Assembly (NCBI GenBank): GCA_041583775.1
Contig: JBFHFF010000004.1
Span: 66,428-130,427, forward strand
Direction: 5' to 3'
Source of the DNA: Candidatus Moraniibacteriota bacterium
GTDB lineage: Bacteria; Patescibacteriota; Minisyncoccia; Moranbacterales; DUUL01
Length of the DNA: 64,000 nt
The position numbers and the translations under genes were made by a program. Position 1 is the first letter of the stretch, and every line of letters starts with the position of its first letter. Under the pieces are notes generated by a model that was given only the letters and a program-made list of their open reading frames with translations, made no database searches and was not told where the DNA came from. Below, in pieces: positions 47,956 through 56,248 of the stretch.

Positions 47956-49233
47956 TCATTGTTTTATCATCTTATTTAGCTCACCTATCCTAAAGCTTTT
48001 TAGATTTCCCAAAGAATCTTCACTTACTATTATATCAAAATGAAACTCAGTTTTTCCCAGAACCTGGCCCTCTTTAGCTCCCCCGATTATCACTGAAAGC
48101 TCTTGTCCTTTAAATTTATTTTCATATTCATTCTCCAATTCCTTTGAAATTTGTCTGAGTTTTTTTGCTCTTGTTTTTTTAGTCTCTTTTTTGATTTGAT
48201 CTTTCATTCTAGCTGCTGGCGTTTTTTCGTGAGCTGAAAATTGAAAAACATGGGCATTGCTAAAGCCAATTTCTAGACACAGTTGAACTGTTTGCTCAAA
48301 ATCTTCTTCCGTTTCTCCTGGAAATCCAACAATCACATCGGTTGTTATTGCTATATTCGGCATCAATTCACGAGCTTTTTTAACTCTTTTTCTAAAATAA
48401 TTCCTTGTATATGGCCGATTCATCGCACTTAGAATCTTATCACTCCCTGATTGCAATGGAAAATGCAAATGTCGACAAATTTTACTACTTTTCGCCATAA
48501 GCTCCAAAAGTTTGTCGTCAACATCAACGACCTCAATTGAACTGAGCCTCACTCTTCCCAATTCTTTTATTTTTATAATTTCTTCCAGCAAATCGCCAAG
48601 ATTACAAGTTGCAGAGTTCTTTTCTTTTCCATAAAGTCCAAGGTGAATTCCACACAAGACAACCTCTCGATAACCTGCCTCTATGGCTGCTCTAATTTCC
48701 TCCAAGACCTCTTCTCTTGGCCTGGAGGATAATTTGCCCCTGGAATAAGGAATGATGCAGTAGGAACAAAACTGTTCGCATCCATCTTGAATTTTCAAAA
48801 AATAACGAGACCTCTCCCCCTCTCCCGGTGGAACGATTTTCAAGCTACCTAGTTTTTCACATTCATTGTTCAGTTGAGTATTTTTCAGATTAACAAAAAA
48901 TTTTTTAATTTCAGCTACCAATTTTTTATGATCACCAACTTCCCAAATCAAATCTGCTTTTATTTTTTTCATTTCCTCAGGATATATTTTTGCCCAACAT
49001 CCCAAAAGCACTGTTTTGGCATTTGGGTTTTCCCTTCCTATCGCAGCAAACATCCTTCGCCCTTTTGCGATTGAAGTCTTTGTAACGGCGCAAGAATTAA
49101 CAATCGCAAGCCCAACCTCTTCTGAGTCTTCAAAGGAATGTTCAAAACCAGCGTCTATAAGTAATTTTCTTAGTGCAAGGGAATCGTATTGATTGACTTT
49201 ACAACCCAAAGTTTTTATAATAAATTTTTTCAC
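47956..49233 (-). CDS. MiaB-family radical-SAM methylthiotransferase (MtaB/RimO-like)
   Basis: N-terminal MTTase domain, CEQFCSYC radical-SAM cluster motif, C-terminal TRAM-like region. Confidence 0.8.
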   Translation of the reverse strand: MKKFIIKTLGCKVNQYDSLALRKLLIDAGFEHSFEDSEEVGLAIVNSCAVTKTSIAKGRRMFAAIGRENPNAKTVLLGCWAKIYPEEMKKIKADLIWEVGDHKKLVAEIKKFFVNLKNTQLNNECEKLGSLKIVPPGEGERSRYFLKIQDGCEQFCSYCIIPYSRGKLSSRPREEVLEEIRAAIEAGYREVVLCGIHLGLYGKEKNSATCNLGDLLEEIIKIKELGRVRLSSIEVVDVDDKLLELMAKSSKICRHLHFPLQSGSDKILSAMNRPYTRNYFRKRVKKARELMPNIAITTDVIVGFPGETEEDFEQTVQLCLEIGFSNAHVFQFSAHEKTPAARMKDQIKKETKKTRAKKLRQISKELENEYENKFKGQELSVIIGGAKEGQVLGKTEFHFDIIVSEDSLGNLKSFRIGELNKMIKQ

Positions 49234-49559
49234 AAAACTAAAGTTTAAATTTAATAACTTAGAGTCTAACCCGAAAATGATTTCTTTTCAACAAAATCCT
49301 TGTGTATCTTAAAAGGTACCTTTTAAGGGAAGGGGGTGGGAAATCTGTCTTTATTTGTCATCCTCAGCTTGACTGGGGATCTATTAGGCTCTACACAGCA
49401 ATTTTTAACACAAACTATCTCAGTTTGGCTTCAAAGTAATCTTTTTGTTTATTGTTCTGTATTTTCTGTCTCTCAATCTAATGGATTCCCGACTCCTCGG
49501 GAATGACAATCTTCCTCATCTAATTGTTGTGTTGAGTTTTTTTATTGAAAATTCACACT

Positions 49560-50158
49560 TTATTTCTCAATCACAATAAAATCCCCTTCTTCTAGCGCAT
49601 GAATGGGAAGTGATTTGTCTCCATATTCCTCCAACTCTTTTTTTGCATTTTCCCAATCAATTGGTCCTCTTGGGTCATTATTGCCATAGGTTCCATTGAA
49701 ATGAGGAATAAACTTAATTGGCAGAATTCTCAAACCCTCCAAACAGTCTCTCCAATCACAAGTCCATGAAAAAGTGGTTAGAATACTCGAACCAGCAGAG
49801 CTCGTCGCCACGACTTTTCCTTCAAAAATCTTTTCTAAATCAAATTGATCAAACCAAAATCGCAACACAAATAGTCATCCCCTCCTTGGATAATAATAAT
49901 ATCGTTTTTTTCTGCTTGTTTTTCGAATGTTACTGGAAATGCTAAATCAAAGACTAAGCTATCTGCTTTTCCTGTCAGAGAAGCAAATCTTTCACTATAA
50001 GCTTCAAACCTCGTCTCCCAGCTTTCTCGAGGCTGTGCAAAAAAACAATAGAGAATTCTAATTTCCCCTTCAAAACCAACAAGGATTTCATTCAAAAAAG
50101 CCAACTCCTTCTCGGGATATTTTTTAGCGCCACCCGAATTTAAGATATATTTTGTCAT
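49560..50158 (-). pseudogene. S51 (peptidase E / cyanophycinase-like) peptidase gene split by a single frameshift
   Basis: Upstream ORF ends ...IIIQGGDDYLCCDFGLINLI*; the +1 frame continues LRFWFDQFDLEKIFEGKVVATSSAGS (the S51 SAG nucleophile region) from a GTG. Confidence 0.55.
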
Positions 50159-50210
50159 TTGTATTATAACTATAAATTATAGATGAATTTATTTTAACAA
50201 GGTTATATAG

Positions 50211-50250
50211 AAAAACAAAAAATCCATCGCATATGCGAGGGATTTTTTTA
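50211..50250. terminator. bidirectional intrinsic terminator at the edge of repeat copy 1
   Basis: A-run, atccatcgcatatgcgagggat imperfect palindrome, T7. Confidence 0.55.
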
Positions 50251-50463
50251 TGTGGACCCTAGTAACTTTTCTTGGAACACCTTCTTAAATACCATTGTTG
50301 AGTGGCAACCTACCATCCAAAGGATTAAACAAGGCTTTGTTTAATCGCTTATATAAAGAATTCTGTGCTATATAACATATACACAATAGGATAATGGAAC
50401 ATCTATACGTACAAGGCATTAAAATATGAAGAGATTTCAATAAATAGAAGGTGGTATTTTGAA
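50222..50463. repeat. copy 1 of a ~245-bp diverged direct repeat (att-like element)
   Basis: About 88% identical to 51831..52075 by manual alignment; starts with tatgtggaccctag, which matches the tRNA-Ala 3' end. Confidence 0.8.
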
Positions 50464-50531
50464 AAAAGCGAATGTTCAGGGGGCATCCAAAAAACAATCT
50501 TTATTTAGATCATTTTAAAGGACGCGCACTT

Positions 50532-51101
50532 CTATAAGCCATTTCTTACAAAAGAAAACAGCTCATCTACTGTCTTCTTTTCTATGAACTTACCATACGC
50601 TCCGTACTTATTATTGAATTCTACGAAAAGTTCTTTATAGTTTTTAGAAAAATCTGGAGAAGTTAAATCAGGCCCTTGATCTAAATTTTGAAACATAAAT
50701 TTTCTCATTCTCACAAGACCAGTATATTGCTTCTTTTCATTCTCATTAAAAAGAGTATCAATTAAATAGATTTCATAAGCAACATAAAAAGTAGCTAGAT
50801 TGCAAACGACTTGGTCTGAATTTAAAATATTCAAACCTTTTTTAAAAATCTCGTCCTCTTCTTCGATTAATCTTCTTTTTATGTCATCATCTTCAATTCC
50901 TTCTAAATCTTTTTCAAAATCATATGTTAAGTTAGGGATTGCCCAATTTAAAGCTCGTGCTAGCAGTTGCAACCCAAATTCATCATTCTCTAATTTCTCT
51001 TCTTCTATAAATTTATCAGCGACTCCCATAACTATAGCATCGTGAATGAGATTATTCGCTTTTAAGGCATTTTTAAGCCTATTTTTCTTTAGCCAAAACA
51101 T
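50532..51101 (-). CDS. hypothetical protein (189 aa)
   Basis: ORF between the two repeat copies; no motif I recognise. Confidence 0.5.
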   Translation of the reverse strand: MFWLKKNRLKNALKANNLIHDAIVMGVADKFIEEEKLENDEFGLQLLARALNWAIPNLTYDFEKDLEGIEDDDIKRRLIEEEDEIFKKGLNILNSDQVVCNLATFYVAYEIYLIDTLFNENEKKQYTGLVRMRKFMFQNLDQGPDLTSPDFSKNYKELFVEFNNKYGAYGKFIEKKTVDELFSFVRNGL

Positions 51102-51274
51102 ACTTTTAGTTATTACTGCTTAATATTTTCACCTTCATTTTTTCTCTTTTTCCAAAATTATTGTGAATTCTACATTTTTCCCGTATCTTTTATCTCAAAT
51201 TTACGAGAGGGTTCAAAGCAGGGGCCATTGAACCCACTATAAAACAAAACACCAGACGTTCATTTTTCGATTCC

Positions 51275-51583
51275 CTATCTTAGATGATTTATAGAATCCT
51301 CTATTTCATTAAGCATACTCCTAGTTTCGAAGTCATTATAATCTTTTTTATCTTGTATGGACTTCAACTTATCAGTCAATTCAAAATTTTCATTCAAACT
51401 TTTGATAAGATTGTTCTTTTGAAAGACTTTACTATGATAATACGCCACCAATCCCAACATCCCATAATATGGCAAAGCAACCGCCCAAACAGAGTCAAAT
51501 TCAACAACTGCAAAATAAATCAAAACGGGAACAACAAAAAGAACAACTAAAAAGAATGAATTCCATAAATTCCCTTTTGACAT
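51275..51583 (-). CDS. small two-TM membrane protein with a charged C-terminal tail (holin-like topology)
   Basis: Two hydrophobic helices followed by a K/D/E-rich tail. Confidence 0.5.
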   Translation of the reverse strand: MSKGNLWNSFFLVVLFVVPVLIYFAVVEFDSVWAVALPYYGMLGLVAYYHSKVFQKNNLIKSLNENFELTDKLKSIQDKKDYNDFETRSMLNEIEDSINHLR

Positions 51584-51830
51584 AATAAATCAATTTAACA
51601 ATTAAATAATTAATTCACAAGTTCAACTGCTTCTGCCTTAAACCCTTAAACACTCCATCTCCTTAACATCACCCTCATCTGCCACGTAGCAACGTTTATT
51701 CTATATCAACCCAAAACTCGCTACATTTAAAGTTTACCACCTAAGACTAAATAAGAAAACCTCAGTAAAGCAATATTTTTTCCAATACCCCCTTGCATTC
51801 AAATCCACAACAAACTATTCGTAAACAAAA

Positions 51831-52075
51831 GAATCCCTCGCTGATGCGAAAGATTCCTTTTTGTGTGGACCATAAAGACTTTTATTGTAACACCTTTTTA
51901 AATACCATTATTGAGTGGCAACCTACTGTCAAAAGGGTTAAACAAAGCTTTATTTAATAGCTTATATAAAGAATTCTGTGCTATATAACATACACGCAAT
52001 AAGATAATGGAACATTTATACGTATAATGCGTTAAAATATGAAGAGATTTCAATAAATAGAAGGTGGTATATTGA
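51831..52075. repeat. copy 2 of the ~245-bp direct repeat, with an adjacent terminator hairpin at 51831..51863
   Basis: Manual alignment to copy 1; gaatc...gattc hairpin plus T-run; tgtggaccataaag is a degenerate copy of the tRNA-Ala 3' end. Confidence 0.8.
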
Positions 52076-52235
52076 ACGATGTCCGAACTTTTTTTATTGA
52101 AAAGGAGAAATGTACCGACTCTTTTGCTGTGGCAAATTTAGCTTATTAAAGATATTTAGTTATTTTTGAATATGCCTCATACTCTCATTGCTAGTAAAAA
52201 GCTTGATGAAAGAAGGGCATATCAAAAAATGAAGG

Positions 52236-53204
52236 TTAGTAAGAAAAACTTTCAAAACTTTTTATATCATTTCTTAAATTAGTTTTTCTTGTGATAGCTC
52301 CGTCACTTGCTCTTTCAATAATATTTCCTACAGAAAACTTTCCTAGTTTATTTTTTGTGTAAAGGTTTTTTGCAAAATACAACTCTGCTTCTGGACTCCT
52401 ACCAAAATTATTCGCATTTATAATATGTGTCTCGCAATAAATGATAGCGCTTACTTCTTTAAGCTGATTATTGCAAAAATAATTTGTTGGTATTCGAACT
52501 TTTCTAGCATCTTTTTCAATTTCTATATGTTCCCTAAGCTCATAACCCATCCCATCTGAGGAGCCTCCTCTCATCGGGAATACATCGTTTCCCCTCCCAT
52601 AAACTGTTGCTTCTATTGCACGGCCTCTAAATAGAGTTTCGGTATTATTTCCATTAATAGCGATTAAAAATGGTTCACATTCACTACATACATTACCCAA
52701 ATATTTTTCCCTATACTTTTTGTATTTCTTTGTCAGGGCATTGCTTATCCTTGCTATTCGCGGATCAAGAGCTTTGTAAATATCGCCACTTTTTGGGCTG
52801 TCATCAACTTCCTTATTTTTTCCAGGTGTAGTTATAATAGCTTCAATCCAAATATTTCTTCCATTCACTCTTACCTGTATATCAGGTCCCTTTCCATTGT
52901 TTGGAACCAATTCATAGCCATTATCCATAAGAACTGTTGCTAAATACATTTGCCAAGAAAATGCGTTAAATCCTCTGTTCTTTCTCGAGCGTAGATTCTT
53001 GAGAAAGTTTGGCTCGGCATATTTTTCATATCTCCCCCATAAAGACTCAAGCCATTTTTTCGTCTCTTCCCTACCCTTTCCACAACAAGTAATTATATAA
53101 GTAGAATCAAGACTTGGATTGTCCTTAATGCATTTTTTCAGCTCATCATCAGATGTAATCTGAGCAAAATCGTGAATAAATATTTTTTCGTGTCTACTTT
53201 TCAT
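52236..53204 (-). CDS. hypothetical protein (322 aa), possibly with a PD-(D/E)xK-like nuclease core
   Basis: GPDIQVRVNGRNIWIEAI resembles a PD...E motif, but the Lys is not evident; last gene of a three-gene operon; its start overlaps the upstream stop (ATGA). Confidence 0.5.
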   Translation of the reverse strand: MKSRHEKIFIHDFAQITSDDELKKCIKDNPSLDSTYIITCCGKGREETKKWLESLWGRYEKYAEPNFLKNLRSRKNRGFNAFSWQMYLATVLMDNGYELVPNNGKGPDIQVRVNGRNIWIEAIITTPGKNKEVDDSPKSGDIYKALDPRIARISNALTKKYKKYREKYLGNVCSECEPFLIAINGNNTETLFRGRAIEATVYGRGNDVFPMRGGSSDGMGYELREHIEIEKDARKVRIPTNYFCNNQLKEVSAIIYCETHIINANNFGRSPEAELYFAKNLYTKNKLGKFSVGNIIERASDGAITRKTNLRNDIKSFESFSY

Positions 53205-53581
53205 TGTTTTTTATTAATATTAGCAATAAATTCCTCCAAGACATCTAGCACGGATAAAAATTCTCTTACTCTGCTTAGCTTGTTTATATTCTTCTTGTAT
53301 TCTAATTCATATCTAGCGAGTATAACTCTGTACTCGAAGATATCACTTTCCGAAGGAAATGCAGAAGGAAACATTCTGTAAACGAATTTTAGTAATCTTT
53401 CATTTTCTTCTATTCCCATTTTATGCTTATTCTCATATTCTTTTTCAACAGAATTTTCTTCCCAACCAACAGTCATTCTCCCCATTCCTCTAAAAAAATT
53501 TTTAAAATTTATAAGCTCATTAATTTTATTTTCAGAACTTTCGAAATAAGGGAAAAAAGGAATGTAATCATACCTGACCAA
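53201..53581 (-). CDS. hypothetical protein (126 aa; alternative start at 53485)
   Basis: The long form overlaps the upstream gene by 73 nt; the ATGA overlap with the downstream gene implies translational coupling. Confidence 0.5.
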   Translation of the reverse strand: MVRYDYIPFFPYFESSENKINELINFKNFFRGMGRMTVGWEENSVEKEYENKHKMGIEENERLLKFVYRMFPSAFPSESDIFEYRVILARYELEYKKNINKLSRVREFLSVLDVLEEFIANINKKQ

Positions 53582-54756
53582 GAAATCGGTTCCGTATCTG
53601 AGAACAAGCCATAGAATATTTTACTTAATTTTGGATCATATCCTACATTTCCTGAAATATTGTCCGATATTTTCTGCTCGGACCAAAAAATTACTTCTCT
53701 TAAGGAAACAAATGGTATTCTTCTCTTAGACTCCAAATTTTTAGCTTTTATTTTCCATTCCTTTGGATATGCTTTCCAAAACATCCACTCACTACTTATC
53801 TTATCTGAATTTGAAAACAAAATAGAGAGAAAAGAAATGAAAAAATTTTCAATATATTCAATATCATCAGAGTGTTTATCAAGATGAATTTTTACCAACC
53901 GCAAATATCGTCCATAACTTTTATCAAGAGATTGGATTTCTATATATTCCAGTACGGGATAAATTTCATAATCAAATGGAAACCATTTTTCGCTTTCCCC
54001 ATACCTTTCGGCTTTATAATACCATTCAAGTATTTCTTCTAAAGGAGACTTTTTTCCTGAATATATCAAGAAATCCTTATCTCTGTTCTCAATATTTCTA
54101 GAAAAATTGCCAAGTAAACTATTCAGAAGAGGTGTACCCTCTCTTTTATCAATCAAAATATTTATATTTTTTGAAAATATCTCAAAAAATTCCAACTCGC
54201 TATTTCTGTCATTTTCTTTAACTTTCCATACCGAAGTCCAAGCAGAAACATATTCTCTATCCTCTCTTATTTTTTTCAGAAATCCGTACCTATGATAATA
54301 TGGATCTTTTATCCAAATAATAAAATCGAGAATTATTTTAATTAATATACCTATTCCAACTAGCCAAATTACAAGTAATACATTTCTCATAACAAAACCA
54401 CTACCAAACCAAAAAAATGATGGCAAATATGACAACAAAAGAGTTATCAATATCAACCTGACATCAAATACTCTGTTTATAATTACTATCAAATCTAATT
54501 CTGAATAGTTTATATTTTCATTGTTTCTCTTAGTTCTAAAATAATCAGACAGCACCGCTATGGCCAAAGGAATCAATATTGTAAAGAGGGCTATGTTCAC
54601 ATTATGAAAATAATTTCCTAATTCCATAACTTGATTAGCAGTGTTGATACTTAAATATAAAAAAATAAACAAGAATATCACTTCTAAAATAAAAAATATC
54701 ACTTCTTTTTGGGAAAGTTTTTTTTGAAATGCTTTTCTCAACATTTTGTTTAACAT
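53509..54756 (-). CDS. hypothetical membrane protein (415 aa; 4 N-terminal TM helices plus a ~270-aa cytoplasmic domain)
   Basis: Hydrophobic N-terminus; no motif I recognise. Confidence 0.55.
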   Translation of the reverse strand: MLNKMLRKAFQKKLSQKEVIFFILEVIFLFIFLYLSINTANQVMELGNYFHNVNIALFTILIPLAIAVLSDYFRTKRNNENINYSELDLIVIINRVFDVRLILITLLLSYLPSFFWFGSGFVMRNVLLVIWLVGIGILIKIILDFIIWIKDPYYHRYGFLKKIREDREYVSAWTSVWKVKENDRNSELEFFEIFSKNINILIDKREGTPLLNSLLGNFSRNIENRDKDFLIYSGKKSPLEEILEWYYKAERYGESEKWFPFDYEIYPVLEYIEIQSLDKSYGRYLRLVKIHLDKHSDDIEYIENFFISFLSILFSNSDKISSEWMFWKAYPKEWKIKAKNLESKRRIPFVSLREVIFWSEQKISDNISGNVGYDPKLSKIFYGLFSDTEPISWSGMITFLFSLISKVLKIKLMSL

Positions 54757-55199
54757 AACAAATATTTCTTAATTTAGTTAGGATATTTATTTTAAACAGT
54801 TTTCCATAATAACTGAATCTAGGGGGAAAATCAATAATTTATATACAAAAAATACTTGCTAATAAACTTTTAAAAATACGAAAGATATGGTGTGTGGTGT
54901 TAGAATATTTTATTTTATAATTCCAGATTCAATTTACTTGCAGTTATTTTAAGAATCCTTCTTTCTCTGTTTCGAATTATTTCTTTGTCTCTTATTTTCT
55001 CTTTGATATTTTCATATCGTGTGGGATGAAAATACATCGATTAGTCCTCAATTTTTCAGCGCCTACTCGTCTTAAGGAATATTGCAACACAACATCAGGG
55101 TTTCCTGAGTGCCAACCTAAGGCACGCTTAATTACGTTAAAGCCATCTAAATCTTTTCTTATATTAAAACTTTTAATTAGGGACCCACCTCCTTGATGA

Positions 55200-55682
55200 T
55201 GCATAAATATTAACTTTCCAGATACCATAGAAAAATGGAATGCTACTGCAAGGGAGTTAGCACTAAAAGAAAAAGAAGTTGAAAATTACATCGACCTGCT
55301 GGCAAAAACCGCCAGTGATGTTGTTAGAAAGAAATATGAGCTTAGAGTCGAAGCCCTTGAGGAAGAGATTTCGGCATTAAAAAAACAGCCCTCGGTTGCT
55401 AAGCACCTGAACTGTGAAGACGCTATTTCAGAAGTATTGCATTTTCTTGGAACACCTGCTGATTATTGGCAAAAAACCAATCTGGAAGGCAAATTTATGG
55501 TACACAACCTTATATTCACAGAGAATCCAATCTTTGACTTGCAAAATGGATTTGGAACACCTAAAACTTCCCTTCCCTTCGCAATAAAAGACGCCATTCA
55601 CAATGACGTCTCTTCTATGGTGGACCCTAGGGGATTCGAACTCCTGACCTCCTCAGTGCAAATGAGGCGCTCTACCAACTGA
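55200..55682 (+). pseudogene. start-less remnant of a larger gene, tentatively a recombinase C-terminal coiled-coil tail, reading into tRNA-Ala
   Basis: Open frame begins right after a TGA at 55197-55199 with no ATG; heptad-like ALKEKEVENYIDLL...ELRVEALEEEISALKK; runs antisense across the tRNA-Ala 3' end. Confidence 0.3.
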
Positions 55683-55693
55683 GCTAAGGGCCC
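55618..55693 (-). tRNA. tRNA-Ala (TGC) with encoded CCA
   Basis: Cloverleaf by eye; anticodon loop TTTGCAC; G3-U70 alanine identity pair; 3' ...AGGGTCC-A-CCA. Confidence 0.85.
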
Positions 55694-55858
55694 ATATTAA
55701 ACTAATTTTAAATTTCTAATTTTTAAGTTTGAATGAATTTTTTAATTAATCAATTTCAAATTTAAAAACTAAAACTTACCTGGTTTTGCTATTCTTCATT
55801 AATAAATTAGAATTTGATTCGAAATTCACAATTCTTAATTCAAAATTATTTGAAAACG

Positions 55859-55935
55859 CTGTGGGCAATCCAGGAATTGAACCTGGGACCTCGTCATTAT
55901 CAGTGACGCGCTCTAACCATCTGAGCTAATCGCCC
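55859..55935 (-). tRNA. tRNA-Ile (GAT)
   Basis: Cloverleaf by eye; anticodon loop CTGATAA. Confidence 0.8.
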
Positions 55936-56248
55936 TTTATTTTTTTCAAAAATTTTCGTCACGATTAAATCACAACAGAAGTAATTATAACAAAAAAAAT
56001 AATATTGTCCAGTGTTTGAATAGAAAAACTCCAGAATATTGTTTTTAAGCTTTTATATAGCGTTTTTTGAATCTCAATAAACAAACTTTTTTCAACACAA
56101 AGGACAACAACAAATTCAAATCTCTCCCCTATTGCCAATTTAAGAATATTGTGTTAATCTAGGTTTTGTCTAAGAAAAAGGCACCCTAAAGCCAAGAAAT
56201 GGCCTTATTATTATTGTGCAGAATTTAAAATAATTATATTATTGAAAT

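What the first reader, a model, noticed from the sequence alone, without database searches (positions are those of the whole stretch)
49234..55940. Accessory island next to tRNA-Ala/tRNA-Ile, with hallmarks of a decayed integrative-element array
The 6.6 kb between the methylthiotransferase gene and rpmE contain only unrecognisable ORFs, a frameshifted peptidase gene, two diverged copies of a 245-bp element ending in terminators, and a possible start-less gene remnant (weakly recombinase-like) adjacent to tRNA-Ala. The island lies on the 3' side of tRNA-Ala, and partial copies of that tRNA's 3' end recur inside it. This is what serial integration at a tRNA gene followed by decay would leave. 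The cargo genes are therefore candidates for an undescribed defence or addiction function.
Basis: partly seen in the sequence, partly recalled or inferred. Interest (0 to 1): 0.7.

Follow-up and report, generated by a model that had tools for sequence, protein, structure and literature searches.

The report
Decayed serine-recombinase island at tRNA-Ala
A 5.4-kb stretch inserted at the end of a tRNA-Ala gene in a tiny-genome (Patescibacteria) bacterium is the worn-out remains of at least two mobile elements that used a serine recombinase; it carries a likely anti-phage nuclease gene, which makes it a fairly ordinary genomic island of a little-studied type.

Summary
The genome is a Patescibacteria (CPR) genome. 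In its nearest relatives the order is rpmE, tRNA-Ile, tRNA-Ala, terminator, S51 peptidase, MiaB-like gene. The window has an extra 5.37 kb (50250-55617) exactly at the tRNA-Ala 3' end.

- **Recombinase remnant.** The start-less frame next to the tRNA is the C-terminal part of a large serine recombinase (LSR), truncated and with in-frame stops.
- **The "245-bp element".** Each copy is an attR-type junction: a 219-nt element arm, then a copy of the tRNA 3' end (CTAGGGTCCAC or TATGGTCCAC), then the native tRNA-Ala terminator. Two such junctions mean at least two integrations, or one integration plus a junction duplication.
- **Intact relatives.** Related CPR contigs carry the same architecture: an LSR gene that converges on, and overlaps, the 3' end of a tRNA.
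- **Cargo.** ORF322 is a PD-(D/E)xK-fold protein matching PADLOC PD-T7-5 and PD-T7-1. Its homologues sit inside type I restriction-modification (R-M) operons. ORF415 and ORF126 are one ~515-aa membrane partner gene broken by a -1 frameshift.
- **Not island.** The S51 peptidase pseudogene and both tRNAs are native.

This is a known kind of feature (a tRNA-linked integrative-element array) in an uncommon LSR-driven form. Interest is moderate.

The parts
47956..49233 (-). MiaB/RimO-family radical-SAM methylthiotransferase. Native flank, not part of the island.
   Evidence: Pfam Radical_SAM E 9e-28 and UPF0004 E 3e-17. Orthologues of 64-74% identity in L002-L004 keep the same neighbourhood.
49560..50158 (-). 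S51-family peptidase pseudogene. A native gene, broken by a 2-nt insertion at 49868-49869.
   Evidence: Weak Pfam S51 hit on the C-terminal half. The intact 198-aa orthologue in L002 is S51 at E 2e-7. The DNA alignment shows the 2-nt insertion. Orthologues sit next to the MiaB-like gene in L002, L003 and L004.
50214..50262 (-). Junction J3, the distal end of the island: a displaced copy of the tRNA-Ala 3' end (CTAGGGTCCAC, 50252-50262) followed by the native tRNA-Ala terminator (50214-50249).
   Evidence: Exact 11-mer shared only with the tRNA. The core plus terminator is 80-85% identical over 52-61 nt to the tRNA-Ala 3' end and terminator of L002, L003 and L004. Hairpin -14.8 kcal/mol, z -5.4.
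50263..50466 (-). Arm 1: the element-derived part of repeat copy 1 (the P-arm of an attR-type junction). It contains the palindrome TTAAACAAGGCTTTGTTTAA at 50325-50344.
   Evidence: 219 nt, 89% identical to 51858-52076. No similarity to the tRNA beyond chance. No Rfam family. Absent from 100 related loci and from one metagenome pattern scan.
50532..51101 (-). ORF189: an all-helical protein of unknown function, a recurrent passenger of small LSR + Rep elements. Cargo of the older, distal remnant.
51275..51583 (-). ORF102: a small protein with an N-terminal hydrophobic segment. Function unknown.
   Evidence: No Pfam, NCBIfam or PHROG hit. One non-significant PADLOC '2TM effector' hit at E 0.044. 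No homologue in the fetched loci.
51782..51819 (-). Vestige of a GC-rich mini-insert that follows the tRNA-Ala terminator in relative L002.
   Evidence: 30 of 38 nt identical to L002 6983-7021; 0 of 2000 shuffles reached the score.
51827..51874 (-). Junction J2: a degenerate copy of the tRNA 3' end (TATGGTCCAC, 51865-51874) followed by a second native-type tRNA-Ala terminator (51827-51862).
   Evidence: 81-86% identical over 43-59 nt to the tRNA-Ala end and terminator of L002, L003 and L004. Hairpin -19.2 kcal/mol, z -6.6.
51875..52079 (-). Arm 2: the element-derived part of repeat copy 2 (the P-arm of the tRNA-proximal element).
52236..53204 (-). ORF322: a restriction-endonuclease-fold (PD-(D/E)xK-like) protein related to the anti-phage proteins PD-T7-5 and PD-T7-1. 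Candidate defence effector.
53201..54756 (-). Partner gene: about 515 aa, with a hydrophobic, probably membrane-spanning N-terminal third. Here it is split into ORF415 and ORF126 by a -1 frameshift in a T run (A6 on the + strand at 53553-53558; T7 is needed).
   Evidence: Aligns end to end with the intact 516-aa and 514-aa genes that overlap the ORF322 homologues in L082 and L089. No Pfam, PADLOC or PHROG family.
55000..55619 (+). Large serine recombinase pseudogene: C-terminal ~200 codons only, with in-frame TGA TGA at 55194-55199. Its reading frame runs into the tRNA-Ala 3' end.
   Evidence: phmmer against 1.84e9 representative proteins gave 272 hits, best E 8e-41. Full-length hits of 515-545 aa match at residues ~380-500, and those hits carry Resolvase + Recombinase + Zn_ribbon_recom. 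tblastn of P0040 aligns window 55080-55628 across the stop codons. phrog_95 integrase E 0.007. The start near 55000 is approximate.
55586..55614 (-). Element-supplied hairpin plus U-run directly after tRNA-Ala. It replaces the native terminator and lies antisense within the LSR 3' coding region.
   Evidence: -14.7 kcal/mol, z -3.1. Homologous hairpins occur after the occupied tRNAs in L090 and L089.
55618..55693 (-). tRNA-Ala(UGC), the integration target. The shared core is at 55620-55630.
   Evidence: ARAGORN and Rfam, 68 bits. Identical to the tRNA-Ala of L002-L004 up to GGTCCAC, after which the sequence switches from native to element type.
55861..55935 (-). tRNA-Ile(GAU), native, probably co-transcribed with tRNA-Ala. 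A promoter-like site (TGGACA, 16 nt, TATAAT) lies at 56011-55984.
   Evidence: The same tRNA-Ile/tRNA-Ala pair occurs in L002, L003, L004 and L007.

Best explanation
The segment 50250-55617 is a composite, immobilised genomic island. It was built by site-specific integration of small large-serine-recombinase (LSR) elements into the 3' end of tRNA-Ala(UGC) in a Patescibacteria genome.

**How integration works.** Steps 1-3 are shown by sequence comparison.
1. The crossover lies within the last bases of the tRNA (CTAGGGTCCAC).
2. The incoming element rebuilds the tRNA end. It places its own hairpin plus U-run after the tRNA, encoded antisense within the 3' end of its recombinase gene.
3. The original 3' end and native terminator are pushed to the far end of the element, where they remain as an attR-type junction.

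**Order of events (inferred).**
1. An older element integrated. What remains of it is ORF102, ORF189, arm 1 and junction J3. It lost its recombinase side by deletion, and an attB-like tRNA + terminator was left at the proximal side.
2. A second, related element then integrated into the tRNA. It comprises the LSR gene, the ~515-aa membrane protein gene, ORF322 and arm 2. This produced junction J2.
3. Its recombinase later lost its N-terminal ~300 codons, including the catalytic domain, and gained stop codons. The array can no longer move.

**Cargo (function inferred, not shown).** The proximal element carries a two-gene operon. One gene encodes a membrane-anchored ~515-aa protein. The other is ORF322, a PD-(D/E)xK-fold protein of the PD-T7-5/PD-T7-1 kind. 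Most likely this is an anti-phage module in which the nuclease-fold protein is the effector and the membrane protein senses or regulates. In this genome the partner gene has a -1 frameshift, so the module may be inactive or only partly functional.
For: **Insertion.** In L004, L002 and L003 the interval between tRNA-Ala and the S51 peptidase is empty or holds other inserts.

**Junctions.** Alignment A5 shows that all tRNA-Ala genes are identical up to GGTCCAC. After that point there are two sequence types:
- The native type (ACAAAGAGAAATTCTTCGCATATGCGAGGGG T-run) is found in L002, L003 and L004 and after both repeat cores in the window.
- The element type (C.AGAAGAGACG...GCGTCTTTTATTG) is found after the window tRNA and after the LSR-occupied tRNA-Ala of L090.

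**Recombinase.** Searches identify the remnant as an LSR C-terminus.

**Same architecture in relatives.**
- L089: tRNA-Trp, LSR, and an 18-nt direct repeat 9.3 kb away followed by a native terminator. It carries the same 514-aa + 323-aa cassette.
- L092: tRNA-Gln, LSR + Rep + an ORF189 homologue, and a 17-nt repeat 4.45 kb away.
- L090: tRNA-Ala.

**Order of events.** The ~45 nt that follow terminator J2 are homologous to the sequence that follows the tRNA-Ala terminator in L002.

**Cargo.** PADLOC, PHROG, fold and gene-context evidence for ORF322. Partner gene and its frameshift.
Against: - No GC deviation marks the island.
- LSR integration normally destroys attB, so a second integration needs the extra deletion step inferred above. 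That step was not observed.
- The 219-nt arm was not found anywhere else, so its role as an element end rests on this locus alone.
- Both frameshifts could in principle be sequencing errors, although an independent Logan assembly shows the same split of the partner gene.
- No experiment links any of these proteins to phage resistance.
Confidence: 0.8

Rival explanations
1. There was only one integration event. The second copy of the 253-nt junction (arm + core + terminator), and the ORF102/ORF189 segment between the copies, arose later. Possible routes are duplication, gene conversion, or homologous (Campbell-type) insertion through the 253-nt homology.
For: The duplicated unit includes the native terminator, which simple serial integration by an LSR does not predict. 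In L002 a 57-nt block of tRNA 3' end plus terminator is duplicated exactly, which shows that such duplications or conversions happen at this locus.
Against: The two copies differ by 11% in the arm and about 20% in the terminator, which suggests separate origins or great age. ORF189 homologues are typical passengers of independent LSR + Rep elements. The sequence after J2 matches the native post-terminator sequence of L002. That fits a second integration into an attB-like site.
Confidence: 0.13
2. The 253-nt repeat is a functional RNA, read on the minus strand and ending in its own terminator. It could be a small RNA with a tRNA-like 3' end or a shared 3'-UTR element, rather than a recombination scar.
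For: Each copy lies downstream of a minus-strand operon and ends in a strong hairpin plus U-run. Whole-repeat folding gives z-scores of -3.2 and -3.4.
Against: Apart from the terminator, the two copies fold differently. There is no Rfam match. No further copy exists in the window, the fetched loci or one metagenome scan. The terminator part is clearly the displaced native tRNA-Ala terminator.
Confidence: 0.04
3. The interval is simply a fast-evolving native spacer region of this lineage with no history of mobility. On this view the recombinase-like frame and the tRNA-end copies are incidental.
For: GC content is like the rest of the genome. Relatives also have different genes in this interval: an AIR-synthase-like gene in L002 and a YceI-like gene in L003.
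Against: The LSR remnant is homologous (E 8e-41) to recombinases that sit in exactly this position at other tRNAs. The cargo cassette recurs in an intact repeat-bounded LSR element. Direct repeats of the tRNA end with the displaced terminator are present.
Confidence: 0.02

Closest known systems
Tandem arrays of integrative genetic elements (genomic islands) at tRNA/tmRNA genes, as mapped by Islander/TIGER (PMC4383910, PMC7192596). Accretion of decayed cis-mobilisable elements is cited from my own knowledge.
   Same: The element integrates into the 3' end of a tRNA gene and restores the gene. A displaced 3' fragment marks the far end. Further elements stack up, and old ones decay into integrase fragments and extra partial tRNA copies.
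   Different: Those arrays are overwhelmingly built by tyrosine integrases with longer identity blocks. Here the enzyme is a large serine recombinase, the shared core is only 7-11 nt, and the recombinase reading frame overlaps the tRNA end on the opposite strand.
Tycheposons of Prochlorococcus (bioRxiv 10.1101/2020.12.28.424599)
   Same: Both are small cargo-carrying elements with a site-specific integrase and often a replication gene. Both target island-associated tRNAs, occur side by side separated by partial tRNA copies, and leave degenerate remnants. A minority of tycheposons (27 of 937) use a large serine recombinase.
   Different: The phylum is different (Patescibacteria) and no sequence relationship was tested. 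The window copy has no replication gene; only the relatives L092 and L099 do. The cargo here is a defence-type nuclease cassette rather than nutrient-acquisition genes.
PD-T7-5 and PD-T7-1, single-gene anti-phage proteins from the E. coli pangenome screen (Vassallo et al. 2022, as cited in PMC10952713 and PMC10270631)
   Same: ORF322 matches both PADLOC profiles over about 210 residues and has a restriction-endonuclease-like fold. PMC10952713 lists those systems as PD(D/E)XK nucleases.
   Different: The match is remote (no BLAST-level similarity was tested) and covers about 60% of the profile. The canonical motif lysine is missing. In this clade ORF322 is translationally coupled to a ~515-aa membrane protein that the E. 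coli systems lack. In a sister clade it is embedded in type I R-M operons.
Serine-recombinase-mediated integration of the filamentous phage phiRSM at a tRNA gene (Askora et al. 2011, listed in the references of PMC7192596; the tRNA-Ser target is from my own knowledge)
   Same: A serine-family recombinase uses the 3' end of a tRNA gene as attB.
   Different: The phiRSM enzyme is a small resolvase-like protein in a phage. Here the enzymes are ~490-535-aa LSRs, in elements for which the PHROG scan of selected L092, L099 and L100 genes found no phage structural genes.

Membership tests
tRNA-targeting integrative genetic element / genomic island | The segment is absent from the same locus in related genomes. 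| tested here: met
   L004 has tRNA-Ala, terminator, S51 and the MiaB-like gene with nothing between. L002, L003 and L007 differ in this interval.
tRNA-targeting integrative genetic element / genomic island | The target tRNA is intact at one end, and a displaced copy of its 3' end forms a direct repeat at the other end. | tested here: met
   An 11-nt exact copy lies at 50252-50262 and a degenerate copy at 51865-51874. Each is followed by the native terminator.
tRNA-targeting integrative genetic element / genomic island | A site-specific recombinase gene lies at a junction. | tested here: met
   An LSR pseudogene abuts and overlaps the tRNA 3' end. It is not functional.
tRNA-targeting integrative genetic element / genomic island | The element can excise or circularise (attP/attB junctions are detectable). 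| not testable with these tools
   No read data were available. The catalytic domain is missing, so autonomous excision is not expected.
Large serine recombinase (for the remnant at ~55000-55619) | N-terminal Resolvase catalytic domain with the nucleophilic serine. | tested here: not met
   No such sequence lies upstream. The space is occupied by the partner gene on the other strand. The locus is a gene fragment, not a recombinase gene.
Large serine recombinase (for the remnant at ~55000-55619) | Recombinase domain and zinc beta-ribbon domain. | tested here: inconclusive
   tblastn of P0040 aligns across the second Cys pair of its Zn ribbon. Pfam and PHROG profiles do not detect the domain in the window frame.
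Large serine recombinase (for the remnant at ~55000-55619) | C-terminal coiled-coil region homologous to that of full-length LSRs. | tested here: met
   272 hits, best E 8e-41. Full-length 515-545-aa hits carry Resolvase + Recombinase + Zn_ribbon_recom.
PD-T7-5 / PD-T7-1 anti-phage proteins | Match to the family profile. | tested here: met
   PADLOC PDLC04110 E 2.5e-18 (profile positions 31-236 of 346) and PDLC04073 E 5e-14. These models have no curated cut-off.
PD-T7-5 / PD-T7-1 anti-phage proteins | PD-(D/E)xK nuclease fold and catalytic motif. | tested here: inconclusive
PD-T7-5 / PD-T7-1 anti-phage proteins | A single gene is sufficient to protect against phage. | not testable with these tools
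   Context only: this clade is coupled to a 515-aa partner, and a sister clade sits inside type I R-M operons.
Tycheposon-like elements | Integrase + replication module + cargo at an island tRNA. | tested here: inconclusive
   There is no replication gene in the window. The relatives L092 (O-like/DnaD-like) and L099 (rolling-circle Rep) have one. No homology to tycheposon genes was tested.
Any described RNA family (for the 253-nt repeat) | Covariance-model match. | tested here: not met
   Rfam finds only the tRNAs at gathering threshold. At E up to 5 there are only terminator-like chance hits.

The most novel reading that the evidence does not exclude
The window holds a decayed example of an apparently undescribed, Patescibacteria-wide family of very small (4.5-9 kb) mobile elements with these properties:
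- The large serine recombinase gene overlaps the 3' end of the target tRNA or tmRNA gene on the opposite strand.
- The element supplies a replacement terminator for the tRNA, and in some cases the CCA end.
- Some members carry a replication initiator gene.
- They ferry defence cassettes between these reduced genomes. One such cassette is a two-component variant of the PD-T7-5 kind (membrane protein plus nuclease-fold protein).

Associated 115-165-nt GC-rich mini-inserts, flanked by tRNA-end repeats, occur in L002, L082 and L095, with a vestige in the window. They might be non-autonomous members of the same system.
Probability: 0.35. Interest if true: 0.6.

Novelty: new variant of a known kind. 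Interest (0 to 1): 0.4.

Why it matters
Patescibacteria have tiny genomes, and little is known about how they exchange genes or resist phages. This locus and its intact relatives suggest that small serine-recombinase elements targeting tRNA 3' ends are one route by which defence genes reach these genomes, and that tRNA-Ala is a hotspot in this clade. The intact relatives (L089, L092) offer compact LSR/attP/attB sets that could be tested as recombination tools. The membrane-protein + PD-T7-5-like pair is a testable candidate two-gene defence module. The window copy itself is degraded and is of little functional interest on its own.

Tried and rejected
- **Rfam.** Searches of the window and of the region found no family for the repeat.
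- **Folding the repeat.** Only the terminator is shared between the two copies.
- **Arm as a decayed tRNA-Ala, tRNA-Ile or spacer copy.** Local alignments are no better than shuffles, p 0.4-1.0.
- **Other copies of the arm.** None in the window, none in the roughly 100 fetched loci, and none in a two-block pattern scan of metagenome contigs.
- **Word-index protein search with the remnant.** It found nothing. The exhaustive HMMER search was needed.
- **Pfam and PHROG on an extended remnant frame.** Neither detected the zinc ribbon.
- **ORF78 as a real gene.** It has no homologue and lies antisense to the LSR pseudogene. Rejected.
- **ORF189 function.** The confident AF2 model gives only generic helical-bundle matches, so its function stays unknown.
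- **Inovirus-type prophages.** I tested whether the ORF189-bearing LSR + Rep elements are of this type. No morphogenesis or structural PHROG hits were found. Not supported.
- **ORF322 against phage records.** No match. Against plasmids there were only 21-28% identity hits to hypothetical proteins.
- **Partner protein.** No PADLOC, Pfam or PHROG family.
- **afdb50 fold library.** It was unavailable.

Full report
**What is at the coordinates.**
All genes between 49234 and 55940 run on the minus strand. They are:
- a split S51 peptidase gene (49560-50158)
- ORF189 (50532-51101)
- ORF102 (51275-51583)
- ORF322 (52236-53204)
- ORF126 and ORF415 (53201-54756)
- tRNA-Ala(tgc) at 55618-55693 and tRNA-Ile(gat) at 55861-55935

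A repeat of about 253 nt occurs at 50214-50466 and 51827-52079. It is 89% identical over 219 ungapped nt. On the minus strand each copy ends in a hairpin plus U-run. It occurs nowhere else in the window. The 11-mer GTGGACCCTAG is found only in the tRNA-Ala 3' end and at 50252-50262; a degenerate copy lies at 51865-51874. GC content does not set the region apart, at 31.6% against 33.7% for the window.

**Synteny.**
The MiaB-like protein places the genome in the Patescibacteria. The nearest genome is a Candidatus Moraniibacteriota MAG (L002, 74% amino-acid identity), followed by L003 and L004 at 64%.
- L004 has tRNA-Ile, tRNA-Ala, a terminator, an intact S51 peptidase gene and the MiaB-like gene with nothing between them.
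- In L007 the tRNA-Ala ends 133 nt before the MiaB-like gene.
- L002 has a small duplication plus an AIR-synthase-like gene in this interval. L003 has a YceI-like gene.

The peptidase gene, the spacer next to the MiaB-like gene and the two tRNAs are therefore native. The window has 5.37 kb of extra DNA (50250-55617) exactly at the tRNA-Ala 3' end, in an interval that varies between relatives.

**The junctions.**
Alignment A5 is the key result. The tRNA-Ala genes of the window, L002, L003 and L004 are identical up to GGTCCAC.
- In the unoccupied relatives the next bases are ACAAAGAGAAATTCTTCGCATATGCGAGGGG followed by a T run, which is the native terminator.
- The same native-type sequence follows both repeat cores in the window, at 80-86% identity over 43-61 nt.
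- After the window's tRNA, in contrast, the sequence is CATAGAAGAGACGTCATTGTGAATGGCGTCTTTTATTG. This is homologous to what follows the recombinase-occupied tRNA-Ala in L090.
- That sequence folds into a hairpin plus U-run, so the element brings a replacement terminator. In the window and in L089 it also brings an encoded CCA.

Each '245-bp element' is thus a 219-nt element arm, then a copy of the tRNA 3' end, then the displaced native terminator. That is an attR-type junction.

**The recombinase.**
The start-less + strand frame that runs into the tRNA end had no hit in Pfam or in the word-index search. An exhaustive phmmer search found 272 homologues, the best at E 8e-41. Full-length hits of 515-545 aa match at residues ~380-500. 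Those proteins carry Resolvase, Recombinase and Zn_ribbon_recom domains. tblastn shows that the homology continues upstream to about 55080, across an in-frame TGA TGA at 55194-55199. The frame is therefore the C-terminal ~200 codons of a large serine recombinase. The catalytic N-terminal ~300 codons are gone. ORF78 on the opposite strand is best read as an artefact.

**Intact relatives show the architecture.**
- **L089.** A 533-aa LSR converges on and overlaps the 3' end of tRNA-Trp. An 18-nt copy of that end, followed by a native terminator, lies 9.3 kb away. The element carries the same two-gene cassette as the window.
- **L092.** A 489-aa LSR overlaps tRNA-Gln. A 17-nt repeat lies 4.45 kb away. 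The element holds a replication-initiator gene and an ORF189 homologue.
- **L090.** The closest LSR (61% identity over the remnant) overlaps tRNA-Ala(tgc).
- **L091.** The LSR 3' end overlaps what looks like a tmRNA 3' end (read by eye).

ORF189 homologues also occur in LSR + rolling-circle-Rep elements (L099, L100) and directly after tRNA-Ser (L095).

**Order of events.**
The ~45 nt after terminator J2 (51782-51819) are homologous to the sequence that follows the tRNA-Ala terminator in L002; 0 of 2000 shuffles reached the score. Before the proximal element arrived, the locus therefore looked like a native tRNA + terminator, followed by older inserted DNA that ended in arm 1, a core copy and a terminator. 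I infer at least two integrations of related elements, because the arms are 89% identical. An intervening deletion removed the first element's recombinase side. Tandem arrays of this sort are well documented for tRNA-targeting elements (PMC7192596; bioRxiv 10.1101/2020.12.28.424599). A single integration followed by duplication of the junction cannot be excluded.

**Cargo.**
ORF322:
- It matches PADLOC PD-T7-5 (E 2.5e-18) and PD-T7-1 (E 5e-14) and a PHROG of unknown function. PMC10952713 lists PD-T7-1 and PD-T7-5 as PD(D/E)XK nucleases.
- G104, G106, P107, D108, W119 and E121 are invariant, but the canonical lysine is not in place.
- Homologues at ~50% identity lie between hsdS and hsdR of type I restriction-modification operons in three separate contexts. 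Their neighbours include AbiEii and a Shedu-type nuclease domain.

The partner gene:
- The closer homologues (73-77% identity) are always preceded by an overlapping ~515-aa gene.
- ORF415 and ORF126 of the window align to that gene end to end. They are separated by the loss of one T in a T7 run.
- The partner has no family assignment.

ORF189 is a confident helical bundle with no informative match. ORF102 is unassigned.

**Verdict.**
Three amendments apply:
1. The recombinase is a serine recombinase, not a tyrosine integrase.
2. The frameshifted peptidase is a native neighbour, not island cargo.
3. The best defence candidate belongs to a described candidate family, although with an undescribed partner.

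The locus itself is a dead remnant. The wider family of LSR elements that overlap tRNA ends in Patescibacteria is the more interesting lead.

Noticed in passing
L002 6924-7150; L082 6868-7100; L095 7675-7870; vestige in window 51782-51819: A homologous GC-rich piece of 115-165 nt sits between a tRNA's terminator and a short direct copy of that tRNA's 3' end, at three different tRNAs (Ala, Trp, Ser) in different Patescibacteria. It starts with the reverse complement of the T-loop region. In L002 the flanking 57-nt block (tRNA end + terminator) is duplicated exactly. Pairwise homology is significant (0 of 1000-2000 shuffles). There is no Rfam match, and three sequences are too few to judge covariation. 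It could be a non-autonomous mini-element or a structured RNA.
   Followed up: partly
L086 5886-6827; L101 700-1641; L102 5173-6117; L103 7001-7945: Homologues of ORF322 (~50% identity) are inserted between hsdS and hsdR of type I restriction-modification operons. Their neighbours include AbiEii, RadC and a SduA_C (Shedu) protein.
   Followed up: partly
L091 4010-4045: The 3' end of a 528-aa LSR gene overlaps a sequence whose reverse complement (GGACGCGGGTGCAACTCCCGCCAGCTCCACCA) looks like the 3' end of a tmRNA gene. The contig ends there, so ARAGORN finds nothing.
   Followed up: no
L090 618-2180: The closest relative of the window's LSR is also broken, into a 64-aa Resolvase fragment and a 375-aa C-terminal ORF. 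Decay of these recombinases at tRNA-Ala may be common.
   Followed up: no
window 50325-50344 and 51938-51957: A near-perfect palindrome (TTAAACAAGGCTTTGTTTAA) is conserved in both repeat arms. It could be a protein-binding site.
   Followed up: no
window 49234-49559: The 326-nt spacer between the MiaB-like gene and the S51 pseudogene contains hairpin-forming motifs (for example GGATTCCCGACTCCTCGGGAATGAC). Only its first 92 nt are conserved with L002. A 28-nt stretch has weak matches in L028 and L045.
   Followed up: no
window 55984-56011 (-): The strongest promoter-like site in the region (TGGACA, 16 nt, TG-TATAAT; 11 of 12 matches) lies just upstream of tRNA-Ile. It could drive a tRNA-Ile/tRNA-Ala transcript that now ends at the element-supplied hairpin.
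   Followed up: no
L082 7225-8232 and 11032-11844; L089 7811-8932: Other cargo lies next to the two-gene cassette in relatives. It includes a 335-aa protein with an HExxH motif (read by eye), a 270-aa unknown protein and an SDH_protease-domain protein. None has a PADLOC match.
   Followed up: partly
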